A stretch of DNA of 55,690 nucleotides from an uncultured Candidatus Saccharibacteria bacterium (GCA_964576475.1 CAZNVG010000005.1:1-55690); one strand, 5' to 3'; positions 1 through 8,689 are shown, counted from the stretch's first letter. The notes: generated from the letters alone by a model not told the origin. Numbers and translations are program-made.

Positions 1-834
1 TTCATCACCAGGTAGTGCAACGTTCATTCCATAGAGTCCTGCGAGCATTGTCGGGATTGTGAGTGCAAGCGTAATCACTGTCAGTAATCGAATAGTTTCG
101 TTAAGACGTGTATCCATGACGGCACGGTATGAATCCCGCACATTGGTGATTGTTCGCAGTAAGCTCTTGCTACGCGTAATAACCTGCTGAAACTCAATAA
201 CGAGGTCCTCAACCAAATCTCGGTCGTCCTCGAAAAGCTTAATGAGATGACCGCTGAGAAGTCGCTCGATTATGTCGTTAGTAGGAAACAGTGCATCGAG
301 ATAATCGTTAAGTTTGCGTTCGTATTCGACGAAGATGGATATATCGCCCGGGCGCAAACGTGTAATATCGCTGGTTGCAGCTCTCATTTGACGGTTGATA
401 GTAGCAACTTTTGATTGGTATTCGAACACGATCGATTCCAGCATCTGCAGCATGGTTCTGCTCTGCATAGTTGTTGCAATTTCTGTTTTATCAATAAATG
501 GCTGCCATAAACGGCTCAAGGATTCTTGGGAGAGTGTCACAATATACTTGGGCTTTATGATGAATAGGATTGGTGTAGTGAAATCGTTGAAGTCGTCATC
601 TGTGTCTGGCAATCGAGACATGAAATATAATGTATCGCCAACTGTTTCGACTCGTGGAACTTCATGAGGATCGAGTGCGTCAGTAACGATGTCGGGGTCT
701 AGCGAAAACTGCGTAATAATTGATGCGACCTCATCGGGAGTTGGGCGTTCGACTCGAACCCAACTTCCTTCCTGAAGGTCGGCAATCTTAGTGGCTTTGG
801 GCGACTTGCCCGAACTGTGATAATACTGAATCAT
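1..834 (-). CDS. corA: CorA-family Mg2+/Co2+ transporter (C-terminus runs off the window)
   Basis: Hand translation of the minus strand from ATG at 834 is open to position 1: MIQYYHSSGK...DALDPHEVPRVE...RLNETIRLLTVITLALTIPTMLAGLYGMNVALPGDE. Contains the CorA GMN signature after TM1. Missing from the ORF track because it is truncated. Confidence 0.88.
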   Translation of the reverse strand, partial: MIQYYHSSGKSPKATKIADLQEGSWVRVERPTPDEVASIITQFSLDPDIVTDALDPHEVPRVETVGDTLYFMSRLPDTDDDFNDFTTPILFIIKPKYIVTLSQESLSRLWQPFIDKTEIATTMQSRTMLQMLESIVFEYQSKVATINRQMRAATSDITRLRPGDISIFVEYERKLNDYLDALFPTNDIIERLLSGHLIKLFEDDRDLVEDLVIEFQQVITRSKSLLRTITNVRDSYRAVMDTRLNETIRLLTVITLALTIPTMLAGLYGMNVALPGDE

Positions 835-877
835 TAATCTAAGTCTAACGCGCTCAGCTCAATGATTGAAATTAATA

Positions 878-935
878 TGGGATTGCGCGCCTGACAGTTA
901 GTACCAGAGGCACCAAAGGTCAGGCGGCAATCCCA
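878..935. terminator. Long imperfect inverted repeat downstream of the kinase/vWA/PK-like operon
   Basis: Arms TGGGATTGC(G)CGCCTGAC (878-895) and GTCAGGCGGCAATCCCA (919-935), one bulged base, 23-nt loop. Lies between the operon stop (954) and the corA start. Confidence 0.55.
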
Positions 936-953
936 CTTTTGTTCTCGTCATTC

Positions 954-1955
954 CTAGTGACGAGAGGTCGTTTTTCGTGAACCGAGCAGTCGCTCGCGCA
1001 ACGACAGCTGTACTGTCGAATTGCTAGCTACTGGCGTGTAGTCGTCGGCTACCGCCGCGAAGACGTTGACCGCGAGAGCGAGTTTGTCTTCGAGAAGGCA
1101 AAGATCATCGCAGAGCATGTATCGCTTGTATCCGATCTCTCGGAGCCAAGCAAGCTCGCTCAGATCTGCACACGACGGGCCTGGTTCGTTGACAGTGGAC
1201 AGCAGGATCCGTGAGCCGGCGACGGCGTGAGGATCTTTGCTGATGATGAGCTGTAGTGCCCGAAGAATTCGATGCTCCGGCTTCAGCTCAACAAAAAGAT
1301 CGCCGCGTGCGGCAACAAGCGTGAGATTGTCACGCTTAGAGAATTCCTGCTCGACGAAGCCGAGACCACGCTCGTTCTCGATCTTCAACCAAACCTCAGC
1401 GTTGTCGCCGACAAGCTCCAAGAACTCATCGACATCGCGCATTGATTCGGTATAAGACAAGCACCAGCGAGAAATCCCGGCTGCTTTCGCCATCTCGATT
1501 CGCTTCTTCTCCCAGTCGTTGAACTGTTCGCCTTGGAGGACGAACGAGCTGTCCACGACATGAAGTGATTCTCCTGATCGGACCAGATGTTGAGGTCCGC
1601 CCAAGAAAACCAAGCGAGTGCCGTCCACCACACGGTCAAGCAGCGCACCATCATTGCCGGCCTTGAAAAGCACCAGCGAGTCGGGTTGCGCTGCGATTGG
1701 GTGGTTGATGATGATCTCGAGATGATCACCGCAGTCGATTGCTTCCAGTACACGAAGCTGGCGACCCTTGACGTCGAAAAACGTCTCAGGTGGAGCCGGC
1801 CCCGTGGACAGAAGATCGAACTCCGTCTGCAGTTCTGCTTCGCTCAGCATGGGCGTGTTCAGTCGAACGCCTTGGATACGAGGATCCTTAGCAAAGCGAC
1901 CAAAATAACTCATGCTTGGAAGCAATGTGCAGTACAGCTGTAGATCTGGGTTCAT
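954..1955 (-). CDS. Pyruvate-kinase-like TIM-barrel protein (A and B domains only, no C-terminal allosteric domain)
   Basis: PK motifs recognisable: RLN (RLNTPM vs RLNFSHG), DVKGRQLR (DxKGPxIR), LKIEN (KIE), AARGDLFVE (ARGDLGVE), SRILLS (TQMLES). 333 aa is far shorter than a canonical Pyk. Confidence 0.75.
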   Translation of the reverse strand: MNPDLQLYCTLLPSMSYFGRFAKDPRIQGVRLNTPMLSEAELQTEFDLLSTGPAPPETFFDVKGRQLRVLEAIDCGDHLEIIINHPIAAQPDSLVLFKAGNDGALLDRVVDGTRLVFLGGPQHLVRSGESLHVVDSSFVLQGEQFNDWEKKRIEMAKAAGISRWCLSYTESMRDVDEFLELVGDNAEVWLKIENERGLGFVEQEFSKRDNLTLVAARGDLFVELKPEHRILRALQLIISKDPHAVAGSRILLSTVNEPGPSCADLSELAWLREIGYKRYMLCDDLCLLEDKLALAVNVFAAVADDYTPVASNSTVQLSLRERLLGSRKTTSRH

Positions 1956-1964
1956 GGTCCGTCC

Positions 1965-2957
1965 CTACGCCAGGGGTGTCGAGGCGTCGCCGTCTCCCAG
2001 ATCCTTCAGCATCACCGAATTGCCGCTGCGAAGTGCCTTGCGCGAACCGGCCGTCACCGCGTGGATCGTCTCGAGAGACTTGTACACGGTCTTGACCTGT
2101 CCTGGCTTCTGTCGACCCTCGATCTCCTCTCGGAAGTCGTCGATTCGATCGACTTCTGCCGCGAGGATGCCGAAGATCACATCGACGACGCGGTTGGGGT
2201 CGGGGAGCATGGCGATGTGGCTCTCGCCAACCAGCGGCACCCACTTGTCGTGAGCTCGCTTGGTCTCACCATTCCACGAGTTCCCTGAGCCGGCATCGCT
2301 GCTGCCATATGGCTTCTGGATGAAGTAGACGGATGCGGTTCGCTGCAACTCGGCGAAGACCTGCTTGGTCGTGAGCGAGCGGTCGAGCTTGACGCATGCG
2401 TACTTGGCAGCGTGCTCGACACTGACTGAGTCGAAGCACGGCTCGTCACCGATGAAGATGACGATGGGCTCTGCCATGGCACTGACGCTCAGGTTGTGAG
2501 CGAAGTACAGCGCTGCGAGTTCGTACGTCTCTCCACCGTTACCGCCACCCTTGTTCTCGATGGTCAGCTGCTTGAGTCGGACCTCAAGGTCCTTGCCGGT
2601 GGCGAAGGGTCGAACCTGCAGTGCGTAGGTCTCGTTCTTGTGCGCATCGCCGATCGCCGCGAAGCAGATCTCAGCGTCGTCGCCCAGGTAGTCCCGCACC
2701 TCATGGTCGAGATACGGCAACTTGGAGAACATCGTCGCCGGCCAGTCACCCATCGAGGATGTCTCGTCGATGACGATGATCAGTGGACGCTGCGCCTTGG
2801 ATGACACCTTCTTCTCTCGCTTGGAGTCGAGGGAGGCACCGCTGTCGACCGCTTCTTGGTAGCTACTGCTGACGTGTTGATCGTAACGCGCTCGTGCGCG
2901 TTGGAAGTCATGCCCCTGCCATTGTGGGGCTGGGACATAGTCGTGTGATTCACTCAC
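1965..2957 (-). CDS. von Willebrand factor A (vWA) domain protein
   Basis: MIDAS motif IIVIDETSSMG (DxTxS), GGGNGGE loop, VIFIGDEP. GTG start with AAGGAG SD. Confidence 0.85.
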   Translation of the reverse strand: MSESHDYVPAPQWQGHDFQRARARYDQHVSSSYQEAVDSGASLDSKREKKVSSKAQRPLIIVIDETSSMGDWPATMFSKLPYLDHEVRDYLGDDAEICFAAIGDAHKNETYALQVRPFATGKDLEVRLKQLTIENKGGGNGGETYELAALYFAHNLSVSAMAEPIVIFIGDEPCFDSVSVEHAAKYACVKLDRSLTTKQVFAELQRTASVYFIQKPYGSSDAGSGNSWNGETKRAHDKWVPLVGESHIAMLPDPNRVVDVIFGILAAEVDRIDDFREEIEGRQKPGQVKTVYKSLETIHAVTAGSRKALRSGNSVMLKDLGDGDASTPLA

Positions 2958-2981
2958 GTGATTCTCCTTGGTTGGTTCGGA

Positions 2982-4004
2982 CTAAGACTTGATCTTCTTG
3001 TGACGGATTGGCTTCATGCCAGAGCGACGACGACCAAACGATGCCTGGCGGGCAGCGATCAGTGTGTCGTCGAGAGTTTCGGTCGACCAATTCGGTCGGT
3101 CGAGAGGGTTGGTCTTCAGCAACCTTCGAAGTAGATCGCACAATGGGTCTGGAAGATCGCTTGGGACTCGACGACGAGCAACTGCTTCCAGGTCGTTGCT
3201 AAACGCAAACAGCATGGTTGCTGCCAGCGAGTAGAAGTCGGATTCTGGAATCAGCGGCAAGCCTTTCTTCGATTCCGGGGAGCCGAAGTGTGGTGTGTAG
3301 CCGAGGCTTGCTGCTGTGTCGTCAGGGCGAACCGCTGCCAGGCCGAAGTCAACCAACACTACCTCGTGAGAGCTTGGCTGGACAATGATGTTCTTCGGCT
3401 TGAGGTCGCCGTGGATGATGCCGTTGTAGTGAAGATATTTGAGTGCATTGAGAATGCGCTCGGCAATCCACGCAACATCTTCCGCTTCGATCGGGCCCTT
3501 TTGCTCGACGAGATCGTGTAGGGTTGGCCCCTCCACGAAACCCATGACCAGCGCCACACTGCCGTCATCCAATCGGACGTAGTCACGAATGGCTGGAATG
3601 GCATGGTGGCGGAGGTCCCACATGGCTTGTGCCTCGTGGCTCATCACTTCTTCGTATTCCGGGGAGATCTGCTTGGCGTGTTTGATGCACACAAAACTAC
3701 CCGGCAACTCGATGTGCTCTGCCTTGTAGGTGACACCGATTGCCCCCTCGGCGATCTTGTTCACGATCCGATACTTGCCTCCAATCAATCCGCCGGGCGG
3801 ATGGATGAGAGTGCTGTCGTACTCGGATCGCTTGTCTGGATCGGTCAGGATGCTGTGCGCGTCGTTGACTCGAGCGGCCATGGCTGCGTGCTTGGAACTG
3901 TGATCCGGATGGATCTTCTTCATGCGTGCACGATACGCCGCTTCGATCACCTCGGGGCTTGCTGTTGGCAGAACCTCGAGGACCTGATAGTGCGTGAGGC
4001 CCAT
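2982..4004 (-). CDS. DnaJ (J-domain)-Ser/Thr protein kinase fusion
   Basis: Start moved to ATG 4004 (AAGGAG SD upstream). J-domain THYQVLEV...HPD...LTDPDKRSEYD is followed by Hanks kinase motifs IAEGAIGVTYKA, CIK, HGDLKPKN, DFGLA, SPE, DFYSL. Confidence 0.9.
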   Translation of the reverse strand: MGLTHYQVLEVLPTASPEVIEAAYRARMKKIHPDHSSKHAAMAARVNDAHSILTDPDKRSEYDSTLIHPPGGLIGGKYRIVNKIAEGAIGVTYKAEHIELPGSFVCIKHAKQISPEYEEVMSHEAQAMWDLRHHAIPAIRDYVRLDDGSVALVMGFVEGPTLHDLVEQKGPIEAEDVAWIAERILNALKYLHYNGIIHGDLKPKNIIVQPSSHEVVLVDFGLAAVRPDDTAASLGYTPHFGSPESKKGLPLIPESDFYSLAATMLFAFSNDLEAVARRRVPSDLPDPLCDLLRRLLKTNPLDRPNWSTETLDDTLIAARQASFGRRRSGMKPIRHKKIKS

Positions 4005-4396
4005 TCGGGATACTCCTTGTCTGTTGTCGGTTTTGAAAAACGATGTAAACGAACTACCTACGATGTTAGTCTCGACGCTGTTTTGCGCACGCAGTTCTAT
4101 CGCCGTAAATATACTTAAATTGTACGCTCGACACTTTGTATTGCCATGAGCATTACAAGCTGTATTTAGAATTTTAAGCAAACTTTCATGTTGGCTGAGT
4201 AATATCTCTAGTATCACCTTGTAAGCGTAGCCGGTGCGCAGAGGGCAAGGTGAGCAACAGTTTCGTCACAATACGGCGTATCTTGGCTGAGCAGATATGT
4301 AGAGTAAAAGTGTCAGACGGCATGAAAGACATGTACATACAGCAAAGAAAACCCCGTAGATAATGACGAGCAGTAATACACGTAAACGGAGGATAA

Positions 4397-4882
4397 ATGA
4401 GAAAGAAACTAATCGTACTCAGCGCCATTGCTGCAGTCACTGCAACGACACTTGGTGGTGTGGGTATTGTTTCTGCGCATTCGCAGCTCAATGGATCTTC
4501 TGATCTTGTAGATAAGATCGCTACAACGTTTAAGCTAGACAGGAATGAAGTGCAAAAAGTGTTTGATGAAGATCGTCAAGCACATCAAGCAGAGCGTGAA
4601 CAGGCCATGAAAGATCGTCTTTCTCAGGCTGTTAGCGACGGAACGCTTACTCAGGAACAAGCCGATAAGATAACAGCTAAACAAACTGAGATGAAAGCTT
4701 TTCGTGACACGCTAAAGGACAAGACAGATGATGAACGAAAAGCTGCCATGGACAGCAAGCGTGAGGAGCTAAAACAGTGGGCTAAAGACAACGGGATTAG
4801 CGACGAAGCTGCTCGATTCTTGGGTCCTGCCGGCGGACATGGACCGCGTGGTGAAGGTCATATGATGAAAGGGGGTATGTAG
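4397..4882 (+). CDS. Secreted/membrane-anchored helical hypothetical protein
   Basis: N-terminal signal-like segment, charged helical body (LVDKIATTFKLDRNEVQKVF; GTLTQEQADKI), G/H/M-rich tail, GGAGG SD. Confidence 0.75.
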   Translation: MRKKLIVLSAIAAVTATTLGGVGIVSAHSQLNGSSDLVDKIATTFKLDRNEVQKVFDEDRQAHQAEREQAMKDRLSQAVSDGTLTQEQADKITAKQTEMKAFRDTLKDKTDDERKAAMDSKREELKQWAKDNGISDEAARFLGPAGGHGPRGEGHMMKGGM

Positions 4883-4923
4883 AAATAGATAACGTTATAG
4901 CCTGATAACAAGCCAGCCAAAAA

Positions 4924-4965
4924 AAGAAGTCGCTCATGCTGAACCGCATACGAGCGACTTCTTTG
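4924..4965. terminator. Probable bidirectional intrinsic terminator
   Basis: 13-bp perfect arms AAAGAAGTCGCTC / GAGCGACTTCTTT, with an A-tract on the left and a T-rich end on the right, downstream of 4882. Confidence 0.7.
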
Positions 4966-4976
4966 ATATAAAAAAG

Positions 4977-5005
4977 TTGACAGGATTACAACTCTGTATG
5001 ATAAT
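4977..5005 (+). promoter_or_regulatory. sigma70-type promoter
   Basis: TTGACA (4977-4982), 17 nt, GATAAT (5000-5005). A second TATAAT lies at 5108-5113. Confidence 0.55.
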
Positions 5006-5274
5006 CCATTTACATCAGGAGACGAGCGTGCGGTCTCACCTCTCCACTGATCCGATAAAGGATTTCTACGCACGCACTTAATTGAGCATACTGAAATCTT
5101 GTATTTTTATAATCTGTTCGTCCTTCTAATCTTTGGCCGCACACGACGAGTAACGAGGTAGCGGAGTGATCATGCCGGTCTGGATGATTGTTCCGCTACT
5201 CTCGGTACCGAGTGGAGCCAGCCGCGCGACTGCCTCGCGTTTGAAAGTCTATCCAATCTGGGGATGGAGTGCTC

Positions 5275-5865
5275 ATGAAGATTCAGAAGAAGATTGTGGC
5301 GATTGCGATGTTCGCAGTCGTGGCAATGGTGGTGCCGACAGGTGCTGCTGGAGCAAGCGGTGCTGCGGCACCCAATCGGCTCATCGTGGAGCGCGCATGG
5401 TCGCACACGAAGTCGAACACTTCCAGTCAGCCGACGACATCGCGTTCGTCGTACCGATTCGCGCCGGCGGCGTGGGAGCTTGCCGAAGCGCGTGCGTCGC
5501 GTATCATCGCGGTGACTCCGATGGGTGTGGCAACCTGTGGGCGCATCACGTGCACGTTCACGTGGGATCGTGACGACTGGACGCCTCGGCTCAACCAGTG
5601 GTACGGCGGTGACTACACTGGAACGAAGGCCATCGCCGTCGGTGTGGTGGTTGGGCTCGCATGCTTGCCCTTCACCGGTCCGTATGCAGTTGTGTGTGGC
5701 GGTGTCGGTGCCATCAGTTTCTCCTACGTTCAGGAGACGCTTGCCAAGGCTGTTCGCGAACGCTCGTGCATGGCTGTGAAGTTCATCAACTGGGGTGGTG
5801 TCTGGCTGCCGTACAAGCTGGATGTTGTCCCGGTGTCGTCCTTCGATTGCTGGAGGAACTCCTGA
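5275..5865 (+). CDS. GC-rich secreted Cys-containing protein (possible bacteriocin/toxin-like)
   Basis: Sec signal MKIQKKIVAIAMFAVVAMVVPTGAAGA, CGRITCTFTWDR, Gly-rich hydrophobic segment AVGVVVGLACLPFTGPYAVVCGGVGAI, C-terminal SCMAVKF. GC3-rich codons. Confidence 0.75.
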   Translation: MKIQKKIVAIAMFAVVAMVVPTGAAGASGAAAPNRLIVERAWSHTKSNTSSQPTTSRSSYRFAPAAWELAEARASRIIAVTPMGVATCGRITCTFTWDRDDWTPRLNQWYGGDYTGTKAIAVGVVVGLACLPFTGPYAVVCGGVGAISFSYVQETLAKAVRERSCMAVKFINWGGVWLPYKLDVVPVSSFDCWRNS

Positions 5866-6035
5866 TGAGCAAGCAGATGCGACTTCTCGTCGGCATTGTG
5901 TTGGTGTTGTCCGGCCTCGTCGGCAGCGCTCTCAACGATGCACTCGTCAGCGGCAACTTCATGCTCTTCATCGTGTGTGGATGTGTCGCGCTGGGAGGTA
6001 TCGGCTTGATCGGGGTTTCGCTCCGAACTCGCTGA
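5865..6035 (+). CDS. 56-aa two-TM membrane protein, translationally coupled to the upstream gene
   Basis: TGATG stop/start overlap at 5863-5867, GGAGG SD, MSKQMRLLVGIVLVLSGLVGSALNDALVSGNFMLFIVCGCVALGGIGLIGVSLRTR. Confidence 0.75.
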   Translation: MSKQMRLLVGIVLVLSGLVGSALNDALVSGNFMLFIVCGCVALGGIGLIGVSLRTR

Positions 6036-6053
6036 TGTTCTTCAGCTAAAAAT

Positions 6054-6107
6054 GTTGTCTGGCCAGTGGCTGTGCTCGCTTTTGCGAGAACCCACTGGCC
6101 AGACAAC
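6054..6107. terminator. 16-bp perfect inverted repeat closing the GC-rich two-gene cassette
   Basis: GTTGTCTGGCCAGTGG (6054-6069) / CCACTGGCCAGACAAC (6092-6107), with inner CTCGC-TTTT-GCGAG. Confidence 0.6.
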
Positions 6108-6198
6108 GAGATTATTAAAATTAGTTTTGTTGCACTTTTATAAACAACGCATAGCATACTTAGCATCAGATTTGTTATCGTAAGGACAGAGGAGTTGT

Positions 6199-7074
6199 AT
6201 GATGATGACACCAAAGCAAATGTCCGATCGTATAGAGAGCGAGCTGTTAGCTTGTGGTCTCCCAAAGCGGGAGTTGCAAAAAGCAGAGAGTAAATACCTT
6301 ACACAAATTATTCACGAAGATGAGCACATTATTGGAGCAGTAGGTGGTATGTACGACGATTCCCTACACGCAATGTTAGTAGCCACCGATAAGCGAATCT
6401 TCTTTTTGGACTGTAAGCCAATGTACACAGTTAGCGATGAATTGACCTATGAAGTGGTTAGTGGGGTGAAGCACTCACATCATGGACCAGTAACTAGAGT
6501 GACCTTGCACTCAAGAGTCAGCGATTATTCGTTGGTGCTGACAAATAAGAACGCTGCAGATAATTTCGTACGAGCAGTTGAGACGCGTCGACTCGAGACG
6601 AACGTTTTAAACCAAGATGATAAAGAAAAACCAAAGTCAGAAATGAACCCAAAGTTAGTACTCGATGATGCGGTGGTTGCGTTTTTGCAGTCACGCGAAC
6701 TCGGAGTTTTATCGACAGTCGATAGGACAGGAGTAGTTGCTGGAGCGGCAGTGTATTATGTGCTTGCATCGGATGGTTGTGTGTATCTAATGTCACGTTC
6801 CAATACCCTTAAACTTCACAATGCGGTCGAAACGCATATGGTAGCACTGACGGTTTATGATGAGAAGATTTTGCAGACTGTTCAGCTTCAAGGACATGCA
6901 GAGATTGAGATTGATGATAAGAAAAGAGAGATGATCTTCGAGCGACTTATGCGACCAAGACCGGTTGAGGGTACAGTGTCGCTGCCGCCAATTACGAAAC
7001 AACATAGCGGCACGCCGATGATACTTCGCATTGATCCCTTTGCGGCAAAGTTTACAAACTTCCTAGAAAAATAA
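6199..7074 (+). CDS. Bacterial PH-domain / pyridoxamine-5'-phosphate-oxidase-like (FMN split barrel) fusion protein
   Basis: N-half EDEHII...MLVATDKRIFFLD is bPH-like. C-half FLQSRELGVLSTVDRTG...KLHN...VALTV...QTVQLQGHAEI is PNPOx-like. Confidence 0.7.
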   Translation: MMMTPKQMSDRIESELLACGLPKRELQKAESKYLTQIIHEDEHIIGAVGGMYDDSLHAMLVATDKRIFFLDCKPMYTVSDELTYEVVSGVKHSHHGPVTRVTLHSRVSDYSLVLTNKNAADNFVRAVETRRLETNVLNQDDKEKPKSEMNPKLVLDDAVVAFLQSRELGVLSTVDRTGVVAGAAVYYVLASDGCVYLMSRSNTLKLHNAVETHMVALTVYDEKILQTVQLQGHAEIEIDDKKREMIFERLMRPRPVEGTVSLPPITKQHSGTPMILRIDPFAAKFTNFLEK

Positions 7075-7735: not shown

Positions 7736-7792
7736 ATAAATACGGTCAAATGATCAGTTTATAAAGTTAAAGTCAGGTATGAGTGTGGGTCG

Positions 7793-7873
7793 GGGAGGGA
7801 TCGGGTGCGTGCTGGCCAAGGAGTCGAATCGTCGACGTATCCTTAGCGAGCCTTATAGCTCCCGATCCCTCCC
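7793..7873. terminator. 13-bp perfect inverted repeat downstream of the LAxTG gene
   Basis: GGGAGGGATCGGG (7793-7805) / CCCGATCCCTCCC (7861-7873). Confidence 0.5.
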
Positions 7874-7897
7874 AGCTGCGTTCCCCAGCCGCGATGT

Positions 7898-8614
7898 CTA
7901 CCGCTGACGCGGCGTGAAGTACTTGCGCACCAGCTTGTCGCGGTAGGCGAAGATCATCAGGCCGATGCCCAGGACGACGAGGAAGACGCCGAGGTAACCG
8001 AGGGGCTTGGATGCCTTGCCGGTGACGGCGAGCTGGTCACGACGCGGAGTCGTAGACGGCGCGACAGTCGTCGGCGTGACCTTGATGGTCGTCGTGGTGT
8101 CGAGCTTGATCGGCACCGTGGTGCTGGTCGTGCTCGTCGTCGACGGAGCTGCGGTGGTCGTCGTGGCCGGCACCGTGGTGCTGGTCGTGCTCGTCGTGCT
8201 GGTCGTCGACGGAATCGTCGTCGGCGGCGTTGACTCGCAGTTGATCGACTCGTAGCTGGCCTGACGCCCGAGCAGCTGACCCTGGTACTCGACCTCGAAC
8301 CCGATGACACCGCCGAGAATCGAAGTCTCGTTGGTGGTGATCGTGAAGGGGACGAGCTGACCAGGCATGATGACGCCGAGGCTCTTCTTCTCGAAGGGCG
8401 TGACTGCGTCGACCTCCATCTGCGCGTTCGGCTTGCCGATCTTCTCCGAGTTCTTGAAGTAGGACTCGATGATGACCTTGCCGTCGACGCACTTGCTCGT
8501 CGCCTGCTGGTAGGTGTCGCATGCACCCGCCACACCCGCGAGGATGAAGAGGGAGACTGCGGATGCCAACAGGATGAACGGCAATCGCTTGATGGTCTGC
8601 ATTGTGTTGCTCAT
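7898..8614 (-). CDS. GC-rich cell-surface protein with Thr-rich linker and LAxTG sortase-type sorting signal
   Basis: Signal peptide, small Cys-containing domain, TSTTSTT stalk, then LAVTG + hydrophobic TM (LGYLGVFLVVLGIGLMIFAY) + basic tail (RDKLVRKYFTPRQR). Confidence 0.85.
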   Translation of the reverse strand: MSNTMQTIKRLPFILLASAVSLFILAGVAGACDTYQQATSKCVDGKVIIESYFKNSEKIGKPNAQMEVDAVTPFEKKSLGVIMPGQLVPFTITTNETSILGGVIGFEVEYQGQLLGRQASYESINCESTPPTTIPSTTSTTSTTSTTVPATTTTAAPSTTSTTSTTVPIKLDTTTTIKVTPTTVAPSTTPRRDQLAVTGKASKPLGYLGVFLVVLGIGLMIFAYRDKLVRKYFTPRQR

Positions 8615-8689
8615 TTCTGCTTCTGCATGTCAGCGCCATAATGGCACTGAAGGGAACATGCATTAGCTTGGTAGGGAAGTTGCTTGTCG

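What the first reader, a model, noticed from the sequence alone, without database searches (positions are those of the whole stretch)
954..4004. J-domain-kinase / vWA / pyruvate-kinase-like three-gene operon: candidate uncharacterised conflict or stress system
Seen: three tightly packed co-oriented genes (gaps 24 and 9 nt), GC3-richer than the flanks, two with AAGGAG SDs, closed by a long hairpin. They encode a J-domain with intact HPD fused to a non-RD Hanks kinase (HGDLKPKN), a vWA with intact MIDAS, and a truncated PK-fold enzyme. Established: kinase+vWA+phosphatase triads (TerY-P; YegI/YegK/YegL) are stress/conflict modules, and J-domains recruit DnaK. Inference: here a PEP-binding PK-fold protein takes the place of the PP2C phosphatase and the kinase is tied to Hsp70. 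This suggests a system that senses proteostasis or invader proteins and signals through phosphotransfer, possibly anti-phage.
Basis: partly seen in the sequence, partly recalled or inferred. Interest (0 to 1): 0.8.

Follow-up and report, generated by a model that had tools for sequence, protein, structure and literature searches.

The report
Conserved J-kinase, vWA, mini-pyruvate-kinase cassette
Three tightly linked genes (a chaperone-recruiting protein kinase, a metal-site adaptor protein and a pyruvate kinase without its regulatory domain) form a recently imported copy of an apparently undescribed cassette shared by ultra-small bacteria, ultra-small archaea and huge phages. The evidence points to nucleotide or NAD metabolism rather than phage defence.

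Summary
Window 954-4004 (minus strand) carries three co-oriented genes with gaps of 24 and 9 nt. They encode a J-domain plus active non-RD Hanks kinase, a protein with a vWA fold and all five MIDAS positions, and a pyruvate-kinase A+B-domain enzyme lacking the C domain. A strong hairpin closes the set (-47 kcal/mol).

Both refutation conditions fail. The trio keeps the same order in about 75 of 83 loci from CPR bacteria, DPANN archaea and huge phages. The host also has a separate canonical pyruvate kinase.

This copy is foreign and maintained:
- GC is 57% against 47% for the rest of the window.
- Only 2 of 41 related genomes carry the cassette.
- Independent metagenome contigs span both junctions.
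- Strain differences are 29 synonymous to 7 non-synonymous.

The "defence system" reading is not supported. PADLOC gives no system-level hit and neighbours show no defence enrichment. A J-less archaeal clade places the trio inside NAD-salvage operons, and phage copies often lie near an ADP-ribosylglycohydrolase gene.

It is not a TerY-P triad. No PP2C is adjacent here, and the PK-like gene is the constant partner of the vWA gene, not a phosphatase substitute.

Most likely it is a kinase- and Hsp70-controlled, PEP-dependent phosphotransferase module. I found no published description.

The parts
2982..4004 (-). J-domain + Hanks-type Ser/Thr protein kinase gene (340 aa; P0001). The J domain covers aa 4-63 (nt 3995-3816) and the kinase domain about aa 78-317 (nt 3773-3054).
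   Evidence: Pfam DnaJ 1e-14 and Pkinase 4e-32, both above cut-off. HPD 32-34, K108, E124, HGD 198-200, N205, DFG 219-221 and SPE 242-244 are present here and nearly invariant in 75 cassette kinases.
3006..3050 (-). Conserved basic C-terminal tail motif of the kinase, R319...F-G-R-R-R-S328-G-M-K-P-I. It is a candidate autophosphorylation or docking site.
   Evidence: R319 75/75, F323 74/75, G324 72/75, R325 69/75 and S/T328 67/75 across cassette kinases, including the J-less clade. The function is inferred only.
1965..2957 (-). Divergent vWA-fold protein with a complete MIDAS-type metal site (330 aa; P0002) and conserved, low-confidence N- and C-terminal tails.
   Evidence: No Pfam, NCBIfam or PADLOC hit; phrog_2971 at 1e-20. 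AlphaFold pLDDT 85.5; Foldseek to integrin beta-I, SpaC and NorD vWA at E about 1e-6. D64, T66, S68 and D171 are invariant, and T/S144 is in 60/63. The N-terminal tail MSESxDY..W..GHDF and S314 are invariant.
954..1955 (-). Mini pyruvate kinase: PK A (TIM barrel) + B (lid) domains, no C-terminal allosteric domain (333 aa; P0003).
   Evidence: PF00224 at 20.6 bits, below cut-off. PDB pyruvate kinases by sequence at 2e-6. AlphaFold pLDDT 93; Foldseek to pyruvate kinases at E 3e-18, TMq 0.60-0.73. hhalign to the host's own PK at 97.4% probability, ending at PK residue 326 of 479. R31, N33, D61, K63, R68, K191, E193, G218, D219, S248 and R249 are invariant in 75 homologs.
877..936 (-). Long imperfect hairpin directly downstream of the mini-PK stop codon; probable operon terminator or 3' stabiliser.
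   Evidence: RNA fold of 860-960 (minus strand) gives -47 kcal/mol, z = -7.54, with 0 of 200 shuffles as stable. The tail is A/U-rich but has no clean U-run, so terminator function is inferred.
4119..4147 (-). Candidate sigma-70-like promoter (ATGGCA-17-TACAAT) about 115 nt upstream of the kinase start.
   Evidence: Consensus scan only, 9/12 matches, and the number of such sites is not above shuffles. An 'RNA-Seq' contig reaches 4039, upstream of the ATG. Weak.
4013..4018 (-). AAGGAG Shine-Dalgarno of the kinase gene.
   Evidence: Read directly from the sequence.
2964..2969 (-). AAGGAG Shine-Dalgarno of the vWA gene.
   Evidence: Read directly from the sequence.

Best explanation
This is a horizontally acquired, expressed and selectively maintained copy of a conserved three-gene cassette found in CPR bacteria, DPANN archaea and huge phages. 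I found no description of it in the literature I could search.

Proposed mechanism (inferred):
- The mini pyruvate kinase is the catalytic output. It would be a PEP-dependent phosphotransferase that keeps the PEP, metal and phosphoryl-transfer residues of pyruvate kinase. It has lost the allosteric/tetramerisation C domain and has a remodelled nucleotide/K+ region, so it regenerates ATP, GTP or a related nucleotide without sugar-phosphate control.
- Control is supplied in trans. The vWA protein would dock onto a partner through its MIDAS metal site, whose ligand is an acidic or phosphorylated residue. Candidates are the invariant S314 tail of the vWA protein and the invariant RRxS328 tail of the kinase.
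- The active, non-RD Hanks kinase would set that state by phosphorylation.
- Its J domain would recruit the host DnaK to remodel or release the complex.

The biological role would be supply or regulation of nucleotide and NAD(P) metabolism, useful both to energy-poor symbionts and to huge phages, rather than dedicated anti-phage defence.

Shown: gene identities, folds, residue conservation, synteny, co-evolution, horizontal spread, purifying selection.
Inferred: substrate, who binds whom, phosphosites, the DnaK role, physiological role.
For: Identity and folds.

Catalytic competence under selection: kinase residues K108, E124, D200, K202, N205, D219, G221 and E244 are nearly invariant in 75 homologs, including an APE-like xPE motif typical of protein kinases. 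The mini-PK counterparts of R73, N75, D113, R120, K270, E272, D296 and T328 (rabbit PK numbering, from memory) are invariant in both clades. MIDAS is complete.

A unit: kinase, vWA and PK-like genes are adjacent in the same order in about 75 of 83 loci and in 19 of 21 IMG/VR contigs. Pairwise-identity matrices of the three proteins correlate at r = 0.73-0.87, against a permutation maximum of 0.26.

Not glycolytic pyk: the host has a 479-aa canonical PK scoring 337 bits on another contig.

Metabolic link: 13 archaeal loci place the trio inside PncB-PncA-NadE-Nudix-NMNAT-[trio]-ARH-NADK operons, Pfam-verified for L082. Nearest-neighbour tallies are led by NMNAT-type, PhoU, PP2C, adenylosuccinate synthetase, ADP-ribosylglycohydrolase, NadA, NadE and Nudix. 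ARH lies within 6 kb in 9 of 21 phage contigs.

J-DnaK link: DnaK is in the host. DnaK is present in 16 of 17 archaeal genomes with J-bearing cassettes, while the J-less subclade L048/L053/L070 lacks it.

Reversible phosphorylation: PP2C is adjacent in 4 loci.

Foreign but functional here: GC and GC3 offsets; 2 of 41 relatives carry it; both junctions are confirmed in independent assemblies; 29 synonymous against 7 non-synonymous strain differences; RNA-library contigs fall only inside the island, one spanning the vWA/PK-like junction.
Against: No biochemical or interaction evidence exists for any step. AlphaFold-Multimer could not be run.

The NAD-operon context belongs to a divergent, J-less archaeal clade at about 31-33% identity. 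In the main J-bearing clade only 3 of 64 cellular loci have NAD genes within 5 kb, and this window has none.

A dedicated ATP-regenerating enzyme seems redundant beside a canonical PK.

Changes in the nucleotide-side residues (FSH to TPM, GPKIR to GRQLR, ATQ to GSR) may mean a different acceptor or even different chemistry.

The DnaK correlation rests on one co-loss event and on incomplete MAGs.

The RNA libraries may contain DNA.

A patchy, mobile distribution with a GC-anomalous island is also what defence or counter-defence genes look like.
Confidence: 0.42

Rival explanations
1. Phage-derived host-takeover or counter-defence module. The cassette evolved in, or is mainly spread by, huge phages. 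There it would keep ATP/NAD-linked metabolism running, or rebuild it, when host NAD-depleting or ADP-ribosylating immunity fires. Cellular copies such as this one would be captured phage genes.
For: The complete trio is in the 485-kb phage LR745208.1 and in 19 of 21 IMG/VR contigs whose CheckV estimates imply 350-485-kb genomes. An ADP-ribosylglycohydrolase gene lies within 6 kb in 9 of these contigs and Thg1 in 6. Phage copies sit at 5 or more places nested in or near the CPR clade. The window copy and its two closest relatives are GC-rich islands of +10 to +14%. Mycobacteriophages carry a kinase-like/vWA/PurA-like variant. Phage NAD-reconstitution genes are an established counter-defence theme (PMC9503650, section 3.6).
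Against: The deepest branches of the tree are archaeal chromosomal copies, several of them inside housekeeping or NAD operons, and the bacterial and phage copies are nested within them. The window copy has no phage genes around it. It is under purifying selection in a cellular genome. The window's own 3-member clade is not directly sister to phages with support. None of the known NARP enzymes is part of the trio.
Confidence: 0.2
2. Anti-phage, abortive-infection-type defence system. The vWA protein would sense an invader protein or proteostasis stress with DnaK, the kinase would fire broadly, and the PK-like enzyme would act as effector or energy drain.
For: The kinase domain resembles defence kinases at domain level: PADLOC mad6 2.5e-40 and PD-T4-6 1e-36. 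The distribution is patchy (2 of 41 relatives), the island is GC-anomalous, and horizontal transfer is frequent. Kinase + vWA (+PP2C) triads are discussed as conflict or stress modules (my recall of Anantharaman, Iyer and Aravind 2012; PMC7159879 for vWA in conflict systems).
Against: vWA and PK-like proteins have no PADLOC hits. NCBIfam defence-kinase cut-offs are missed: 107 against 460 for MAD6, 69.5 against 990 for PglW. Among 150 nearest neighbours the only shared PADLOC matches listed are ThiF-type E1-E2 hits in 3 genes. Copies are embedded among ribosomal, eIF2alpha and GINS genes and in NAD-salvage operons. The cassette is carried by huge phages. The PK active site is strictly conserved, and no toxic effector domain is present.
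Confidence: 0.13
3. Dedicated chaperone or activase system for an enzyme. By analogy with MoxR-vWA pairs, the vWA protein would be a MIDAS adaptor that targets a remodelling ATPase to the mini-PK to assemble, activate or rescue it. Here the ATPase would be DnaK, recruited by the J domain, rather than an AAA+ protein. Phosphorylation would be secondary.
For: The vWA model matches NorD, the vWA partner of the MoxR-type NorQ (9qh6, 9qhd). The vWA and enzyme genes are the most constant and best co-evolving pair, r = 0.87. In a variant, the vWA gene pairs with a different enzyme, a PurA-like protein. J-domain presence tracks DnaK presence. Jumbo phages are reported to carry J-domain co-chaperones and MoxR-vWA pairs (PMC7824862, section 3.4.5).
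Against: The J domain is absent from a whole clade that keeps kinase, vWA and mini-PK. Its HPD is degenerate in roughly a quarter of J-bearing copies. The kinase catalytic residues are nearly invariant everywhere. So phosphorylation, not Hsp70 recruitment, is the constant feature.
Confidence: 0.15

Closest known systems
TerY-P triad and E. coli YegI/YegK/YegL
   Same: An adjacent Hanks-type kinase and a MIDAS-bearing vWA protein lie in one operon. A PP2C is an extra neighbour in 4 of about 77 loci.
   Different: No PP2C is adjacent here, and the host's only PP2C_2 hit is on another contig. No Ter genes were seen nearby. The vWA protein is too divergent for the Pfam vWA models. The kinase carries an N-terminal J domain. 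A conserved PK-fold enzyme is the third constant member.
Canonical pyruvate kinase (PykF/PykA/PKM; PF00224 + PF02887)
   Same: It has the same A (TIM barrel) and B (lid) domains, and the PEP, Mg and phosphoryl-transfer residues are conserved.
   Different: It lacks the C-terminal allosteric/tetramer domain. It scores below the Pfam and NCBIfam cut-offs. The nucleotide/K+-side motifs are changed. It is always encoded next to the vWA and kinase genes. The host keeps a separate canonical PK.
Mycobacteriophage cluster C (Bxz1/Catera) gp249-gp252: kinase-like protein, vWA-like protein, small ORF, adenylosuccinate-synthetase-like protein
   Same: The gene order is kinase-like then vWA-like. The vWA protein is homologous (30% identity, phrog_2971), and the kinase-like protein has an N-terminal HPD-containing segment.
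   Different: The enzyme partner is PurA-like instead of PK-like. The kinase-like protein has HGA in place of HGD, so it is probably inactive.
MoxR AAA+ / vWA chaperone pairs (CbbQ-CbbO, NorQ-NorD, RavA-ViaA)
   Same: A MIDAS vWA adaptor is encoded next to a client enzyme and linked to an ATP-driven remodeller. NorD is among the top structural matches.
   Different: No AAA+ gene is present. The only link to a remodeller is the J domain, which would recruit Hsp70. A protein kinase is the constant partner.
Sulfolobus Arn network (ArnB vWA and ArnA FHA proteins phosphorylated by ArnC/ArnD Hanks kinases; from my own knowledge)
   Same: It pairs an archaeal Hanks kinase with a vWA protein, and the vWA protein is a phosphorylation target.
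   Different: It contains no PK-like enzyme, no J domain and no conserved three-gene operon. It regulates archaellum expression.
Phage NAD+ salvage and reconstitution genes (NadV/NadM/NadR, NARP pathways; PMC9503650 section 3.6 and my own knowledge)
   Same: They are found in large phages and share the NAD/ADP-ribose theme. The trio neighbours NadE, NMNAT-Nudix, PncA/B, NADK and ARH genes in some loci.
   Different: None of the trio proteins belongs to those enzyme families. No NAD gene is adjacent in this window.

Membership tests
TerY-P triad (vWA + PP2C + Ser/Thr kinase) | Adjacent PP2C-family phosphatase | tested here: not met
   Window neighbours are CorA, unknowns, a PNPOx/bPH protein and ExoD. 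The only PP2C_2 hit in the genome is on contig C2. PP2C is adjacent in only 4 of about 77 homologous loci.
TerY-P triad (vWA + PP2C + Ser/Thr kinase) | TerY-type vWA protein with MIDAS | tested here: inconclusive
   The vWA fold and a complete MIDAS are present. No Pfam or NCBIfam vWA/TerY model matches. Specific kinship to TerY was not tested.
TerY-P triad (vWA + PP2C + Ser/Thr kinase) | Adjacent Hanks-type Ser/Thr kinase | tested here: met
   Pkinase at 112 bits, 24 nt upstream of the vWA gene.
Canonical pyruvate kinase | PK barrel plus lid with catalytic Arg/Asn/Asp/Lys/Glu/Asp/Thr(Ser) set | tested here: met
   Foldseek E 3e-18 to PKs. hhalign to the host PK at 97.4%. These residues are invariant in 75 homologs.
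Canonical pyruvate kinase | C-terminal alpha/beta allosteric domain (PF02887) and a score above family cut-offs | tested here: not met
   The protein is 333 aa and the alignment stops at host-PK residue 326 of 479. PF00224 scores 20.6 bits against a cut-off of 30. NCBIfam PK models score 17-21 bits against cut-offs of 306-686.
Canonical pyruvate kinase | Being the genome's glycolytic PK | tested here: not met
   A separate 479-aa PK scoring 337 bits lies on contig C72.
J-domain co-chaperones of Hsp70 | J domain above cut-off with an HPD motif | tested here: met
   PF00226 at 54.8 bits against a cut-off of 27.8, over aa 4-63. HPD at 32-34.
J-domain co-chaperones of Hsp70 | Hsp70 partner encoded in the genome | tested here: met
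   DnaK at 871 bits on contig C11.
J-domain co-chaperones of Hsp70 | Stimulates Hsp70 ATPase | not testable with these tools
   Needs a biochemical assay.
Hanks-type (eukaryote-like) Ser/Thr protein kinases | Pkinase above cut-off with VAIK Lys, alphaC Glu, HxD-x4-N, DFG and APE-like motifs | tested here: met
   The family is non-RD (HGD) throughout: G199 in 65 of 75.
Known anti-phage kinase systems (PD-T4-6, MADS MAD6, BREX PglW) | Full-length match at the family cut-off | tested here: not met
   NCBIfam MAD6 107 bits against 460; PglW 69.5 against 990. PADLOC matches cover only the kinase domain.
Known anti-phage kinase systems (PD-T4-6, MADS MAD6, BREX PglW) | Partner genes of those systems, or a defence-island neighbourhood | tested here: not met
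   vWA and PK-like proteins have no PADLOC hit. Window neighbours are not defence genes. Among 150 nearest neighbours of homologous loci the only shared PADLOC matches listed are ThiF-type E1-E2 hits in 3 genes.
MoxR-vWA chaperone pairs | Adjacent MoxR-type AAA+ ATPase | tested here: not met
   No AAA+/MoxR family appears among the window neighbours or among the top neighbour families.
NAD-salvage operon accessory cassette (undescribed; seen in archaeal relatives) | Embedded among pncA/pncB/nadE/nadM/nadK/ARH genes | tested here: not met
   This holds for 13 archaeal loci but not for this window. The host's NadE is on contig C8.

The most novel reading that the evidence does not exclude
The trio is a previously unrecognised kind of enzyme-control device. 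A pyruvate-kinase-type, PEP-driven phosphotransferase has shed its allosteric domain. It is switched instead by a dedicated MIDAS-vWA adaptor that reads a phosphoserine written by a partner Hanks kinase, with Hsp70 recruited through the kinase's J domain to reset the complex. The same kinase-vWA control pair can dock onto alternative nucleotide enzymes (mini-PK or a PurA-like ligase). It has been exchanged between DPANN archaea, CPR bacteria and huge phages as a portable booster of NAD/nucleotide regeneration.
Probability: 0.25. Interest if true: 0.85.

Novelty: new variant of a known kind. Interest (0 to 1): 0.66.

Why it matters
CPR bacteria and DPANN archaea are energy-poor, mostly uncultured symbionts, and little is known about how they regulate metabolism. 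This three-gene cassette is about 45-50% identical across the two domains and also sits in 350-485-kb phages. That makes it one of the clearer examples of a shared, mobile functional module linking these groups.

If the mini-PK is a PEP-driven nucleotide or NAD-related phosphotransferase controlled by a kinase, a vWA adaptor and Hsp70, three things would follow:
- a new way of regulating a central-metabolism fold;
- a new client-specific use of J-domain/Hsp70 in prokaryotes;
- a candidate phage auxiliary or counter-defence function.

The proteins are small and soluble-looking, so the hypotheses can be tested directly in vitro.

Tried and rejected
1. Ordinary glycolytic pyk. Rejected: the host has a canonical 479-aa PK elsewhere.
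2. Chance adjacency. Rejected by synteny in about 75 of 83 loci and Mantel r of 0.73-0.87.
3. Assembly chimera as the cause of the GC jump. Rejected: a 14-kb contig from another run, and contigs of a roughly 97%-identical strain from another study, span both junctions.
4. Membership in a known defence system. PADLOC and NCBIfam give only sub-threshold, kinase-domain-level similarity.
5. Defence-island context. Nothing beyond generic ThiF-type hits was found.
6. HpcH/CitE-type lyase instead of PK. Rejected: all top structural and sequence hits are pyruvate kinases with the B-domain insertion.
7. Flanking repeats, tRNA or integrase marking a mobile element. No meaningful terminal repeats were found, and no integrase-like neighbour appears among the scanned ORFs. 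tRNAs were not scanned.
8. Literature. Five full-text searches and three papers read gave no description of the trio. One paper mentions the cluster C mycobacteriophage kinase-like protein only in passing (PMC12363180).
9. Terminase search to confirm the phage nature of the IMG/VR contigs. It hit only 1 of 21, so phage status rests on IMG/VR/CheckV classification and on the GenBank huge-phage record.
10. A vWA/PK-like fusion suggested in L054. This is an artefact of overlapping open frames.

Full report
**1. What is in the sequence**

Three co-oriented genes lie on the minus strand at 2982-4004, 1965-2957 and 954-1955. The gaps between them are 24 and 9 nt. The longer 411-aa frame that starts at 4217 is not the gene. 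The J domain begins at the ATG at 4004, which follows AAGGAG at 4018-4013. The vWA gene (GTG at 2957) also has AAGGAG, at 2969-2964.

The trio is 57.3% GC, against 47.1% for the rest of the window. GC3 is 0.61-0.77 in the trio and 0.39-0.50 in neighbouring genes. Directly after the last stop codon, 877-936 folds into a long hairpin of -47 kcal/mol with z = -7.5.

**2. The three proteins**

P0001 has a J domain (PF00226, 54.8 bits, HPD at 32-34) fused to a Hanks kinase (PF00069, 112 bits). It carries K108, E124, H-G-D 198-200, N205, DFG 219-221 and SPE 242-244. Across 75 cassette kinases these catalytic residues are nearly invariant. The family is non-RD throughout and keeps an APE-like xPE motif, which points to a protein kinase rather than a small-molecule kinase. 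A basic C-terminal tail motif, R..FGR[RK][RH]S-x-MKP[IL], is almost invariant.

P0002 matches no Pfam, NCBIfam or PADLOC model, and only the function-less phage family phrog_2971. Its AlphaFold model (pLDDT 85.5) matches integrin beta-I, SpaC and NorD vWA domains. D64-x-T66-x-S68, T/S144 and D171 form a complete MIDAS-type site. Its low-confidence N-terminus (MSESxDY..W..GHDF) and a C-terminal G-K-S314-V motif are invariant.

P0003 is a pyruvate kinase A+B-domain protein. The evidence is a PDB PK match by sequence at 2e-6, a model with pLDDT 93, and Foldseek E 3e-18 with TMq up to 0.73 against PKs. A profile alignment to the host's own PK stops at residue 326 of 479, so the C domain is missing. 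The PEP, metal and phosphoryl-transfer residues are invariant in 75 homologs. Nucleotide/K+-side positions differ: FSH becomes TPM (consensus SAM), GPKIR becomes GRQLR, and ATQ becomes GSR.

**3. Is the trio a unit?**

Yes. Homolog searches returned 726 vWA-like and 554 PK-like proteins, many on shared contigs. A scan of one genome per species found 220 genomes encoding the vWA-like protein. Across 83 loci, 82 have the PK-like gene, normally directly downstream, and 75 have a kinase gene, normally directly upstream. Pairwise-identity matrices of the three proteins correlate at r = 0.73-0.87, with a permutation maximum of 0.26. A profile search of 1.84 billion cluster representatives found 328 vWA-like clusters at E <= 1e-30 and 1133 at E <= 1e-10.

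The host genome has a separate canonical PK scoring 337 bits on contig C72.

**4. Who carries it**

The carriers are overwhelmingly CPR bacteria (Saccharibacteria, Parcubacteria and many other candidate phyla) and DPANN archaea (Woese-, Pace- and Nanoarchaeota, including the complete AR15 chromosome). A few bins carry other labels.

In a vWA + PK-like tree the archaeal copies form a basal clade and a grade, and the bacterial copies are nested within them. Only 2 changes of the domain label are needed, against a shuffled mean of 23. The root is a midpoint root.

The full trio is also in the 485-kb phage LR745208.1 and in 19 of 21 IMG/VR contigs (two further contigs carry disrupted copies). CheckV completeness estimates imply genomes of 350-485 kb for these contigs. 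Phage copies sit at 5 or more places in or near the CPR clade.

Mycobacteriophage cluster C carries a variant: a kinase-like protein (HPD present, HGA instead of HGD), a vWA-like protein, a small ORF and a PurA-like enzyme. Six IMG/VR contigs have vWA plus PurA-like genes.

**5. This copy**

Named homologs of a flanking P-type ATPase come from Saccharimonadales or Saccharibacteria. Runs that hold the stretch are from activated sludge, wastewater and freshwater.

- Only 2 of 41 related genomes have the cassette.
- The window copy and its two closest relatives (L001, L008) all exceed their flanks by 10-14% GC, against a mean of +3.4% over 72 loci. They lie at unrelated chromosomal sites.
- The island is not an assembly artefact. 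A 14-kb contig from another run, and contigs of a roughly 97% strain from another study, span both junctions.
- Between those strains the island differs by 1.4% and the flanks by 3.7-4.0%.
- Of the 36 listed in-gene differences, 29 are synonymous.
- Contigs from three wastewater 'RNA-Seq' libraries map only inside the island. One spans the vWA/PK-like junction and one reaches 35 nt upstream of the kinase ATG. This is weak evidence for co-transcription, because DNA carry-over is possible.

**6. Functional context**

In a divergent archaeal clade (L075-L087; kinase without a J domain) the trio lies inside co-directional NAD-salvage operons. The order is NAPRTase, nicotinamidase, NAD synthase, Nudix, NMNAT, kinase, vWA, (small ORFs), PK-like, ADP-ribosylglycohydrolase, NAD kinase. 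This was Pfam-verified for L082.

A Saccharibacteria locus (L016) has PncB, PP2C, ARH and NadE around the trio, and L009 has NadE. ARH lies within 6 kb in 9 of 21 phage contigs.

Among the 150 nearest neighbours of 77 loci, the commonest Pfam families are CTP_transf_like (9), PhoU (8), PP2C (4), adenylosuccinate synthetase (3), ThiF (3), ADP_ribosyl_GH (3), radical SAM (3), NadA (2), NAD_synthase (2) and NUDIX (2). The only shared PADLOC matches listed are ThiF-type E1-E2 hits in 3 genes. Another archaeal copy lies between S27e/eIF2alpha/Nop10 and L44e/GINS genes.

In this window the neighbours are CorA, unknown small proteins, a bPH-PNPOx protein and ExoD. The local context is therefore uninformative, and the NAD link is inherited only through homology. 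In the main J-bearing clade just 3 of 64 cellular loci show NAD genes within 5 kb.

**7. J domain and DnaK**

The host encodes DnaK. Among archaeal genomes with J-bearing cassettes, 16 of 17 have DnaK. The J-less subclade L048/L053/L070 comes from genomes with no detectable DnaK, while the J-less NAD-operon clade mostly has DnaK. This fits a real J-DnaK link, but it rests on essentially one co-loss event in incomplete MAGs.

**8. Interpretation**

The constant features are:
- an active protein kinase;
- a MIDAS vWA protein;
- a catalytically intact PK-type enzyme without its allosteric domain.

The variable features are the J domain, PP2C, an alternative PurA-like enzyme and surrounding NAD genes.

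The best reading is a regulated enzyme module, in which the mini-PK is the output, the vWA protein is the adaptor and the kinase is the switch. A J domain, where present, adds DnaK recruitment, and PP2C in some loci would act as the reset. The candidate MIDAS ligands or phosphosites are the invariant S314 tail of the vWA protein and the invariant RRxS328 tail of the kinase.

The role would lie in nucleotide or NAD(P) supply, which would suit both energy-limited symbionts and huge phages. I put 0.42 on this reading. The rivals are a phage takeover or counter-defence module (0.20), a chaperone/activase system analogous to MoxR-vWA (0.15) and anti-phage defence (0.13). None of the mechanistic steps is shown.

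**9. Comparison with known systems**

It works somewhat like TerY-P or YegI/K/L triads and like the Sulfolobus Arn kinase-vWA pair, but it is not a member of those systems. PP2C is absent here, no Ter genes are nearby, and the vWA protein is not recognised by the family models.

It is not a canonical PK, because the C domain is missing, it scores below the cut-offs, and the host has a separate pyk. It does not meet any defence-family cut-off.

Five literature searches and three papers gave no description of the trio.

Earlier AI notes from this scan describe the same cassette in other genomes and reach similar conclusions. I read them after finding the synteny and the NAD context myself, and I treat them as leads, not as support.

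**10. Verdict**

This is an undescribed variant of the kinase-vWA signalling theme, coupled to a mini pyruvate kinase and Hsp70, and imported horizontally into this Saccharibacteria-like genome. Interest is 0.66.

Noticed in passing
window 5100-5900 and 7750-8650: Two further GC-rich islets lie within 5 kb of the trio, separated by AT-richer native DNA. GC3 is 0.71 for the ORF at 5269-5865 and 0.89 for the ORF at 7898-8614. The first 9 kb of the window looks like a hotspot for foreign insertions.
   Followed up: partly
window 1-6500 against runs X5/X11: Between this strain and a roughly 97% relative from another study, the trio differs by 1.4% while both flanks differ by 3.7-4.0%. Either constraint is stronger on the island or it was acquired or exchanged more recently than the strains split.
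   Followed up: partly
L008 4142-4988 and L090 639-1485: In the nearest Saccharibacteria relative(s) of this cassette, the kinase gene is split over two frames and no J domain was detected. This could be a frameshifted pseudogene or a sequencing error. The vWA and PK-like genes are intact.
   Followed up: no
L048, L053, L070 (genomes G057, G058, G060): One archaeal subclade has lost the J domain from the kinase, and its genomes show no DnaK. This looks like co-loss of J domain and Hsp70.
   Followed up: partly
13 archaeal loci, e.g. L013 2798-3748, L014 2881-3828, L064 6794-7921: An AbrB/SpoVT-PhoU-type regulator gene lies next to the trio in 13 DPANN loci; 8 scored as Pfam PhoU. This could be lineage synteny or a link to phosphate metabolism.
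   Followed up: no
L034 3987-5945, L062 3896-5969, L046 257-7114: Some loci carry tandem duplicates of the vWA gene, or a second, more divergent vWA + PK-like pair.
   Followed up: no
L006 9398-10291; L002-L004; L093-L095, L097, L108, L113: A Thg1-like (tRNA-His guanylyltransferase family) gene lies 0.3-2.5 kb downstream of the trio in the huge-phage copies.
   Followed up: no
L024 2224-3132, L044 6151-7035, L068 5904-6839, L077 4076-4966: An uncharacterised roughly 300-aa family ('f20') is inserted inside or beside the cassette in four archaeal loci, between kinase and vWA or between vWA and PK-like.
   Followed up: no
L007 2667-3740 (mycobacteriophage Catera gp249): The annotated 'kinase' has an N-terminal segment with an HPD motif (AVHPDR). 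Its catalytic loop reads HGAITPDN, lacking the catalytic Asp, so it is probably a pseudokinase. It is followed by the vWA-like gp250 and a PurA-like gene (gp252).
   Followed up: partly
window 1915-4039 in runs X25-X27: Contigs from wastewater 'RNA-Seq' libraries cover parts of the trio but none of the 1-950 or 4124-6500 flanks.
   Followed up: partly
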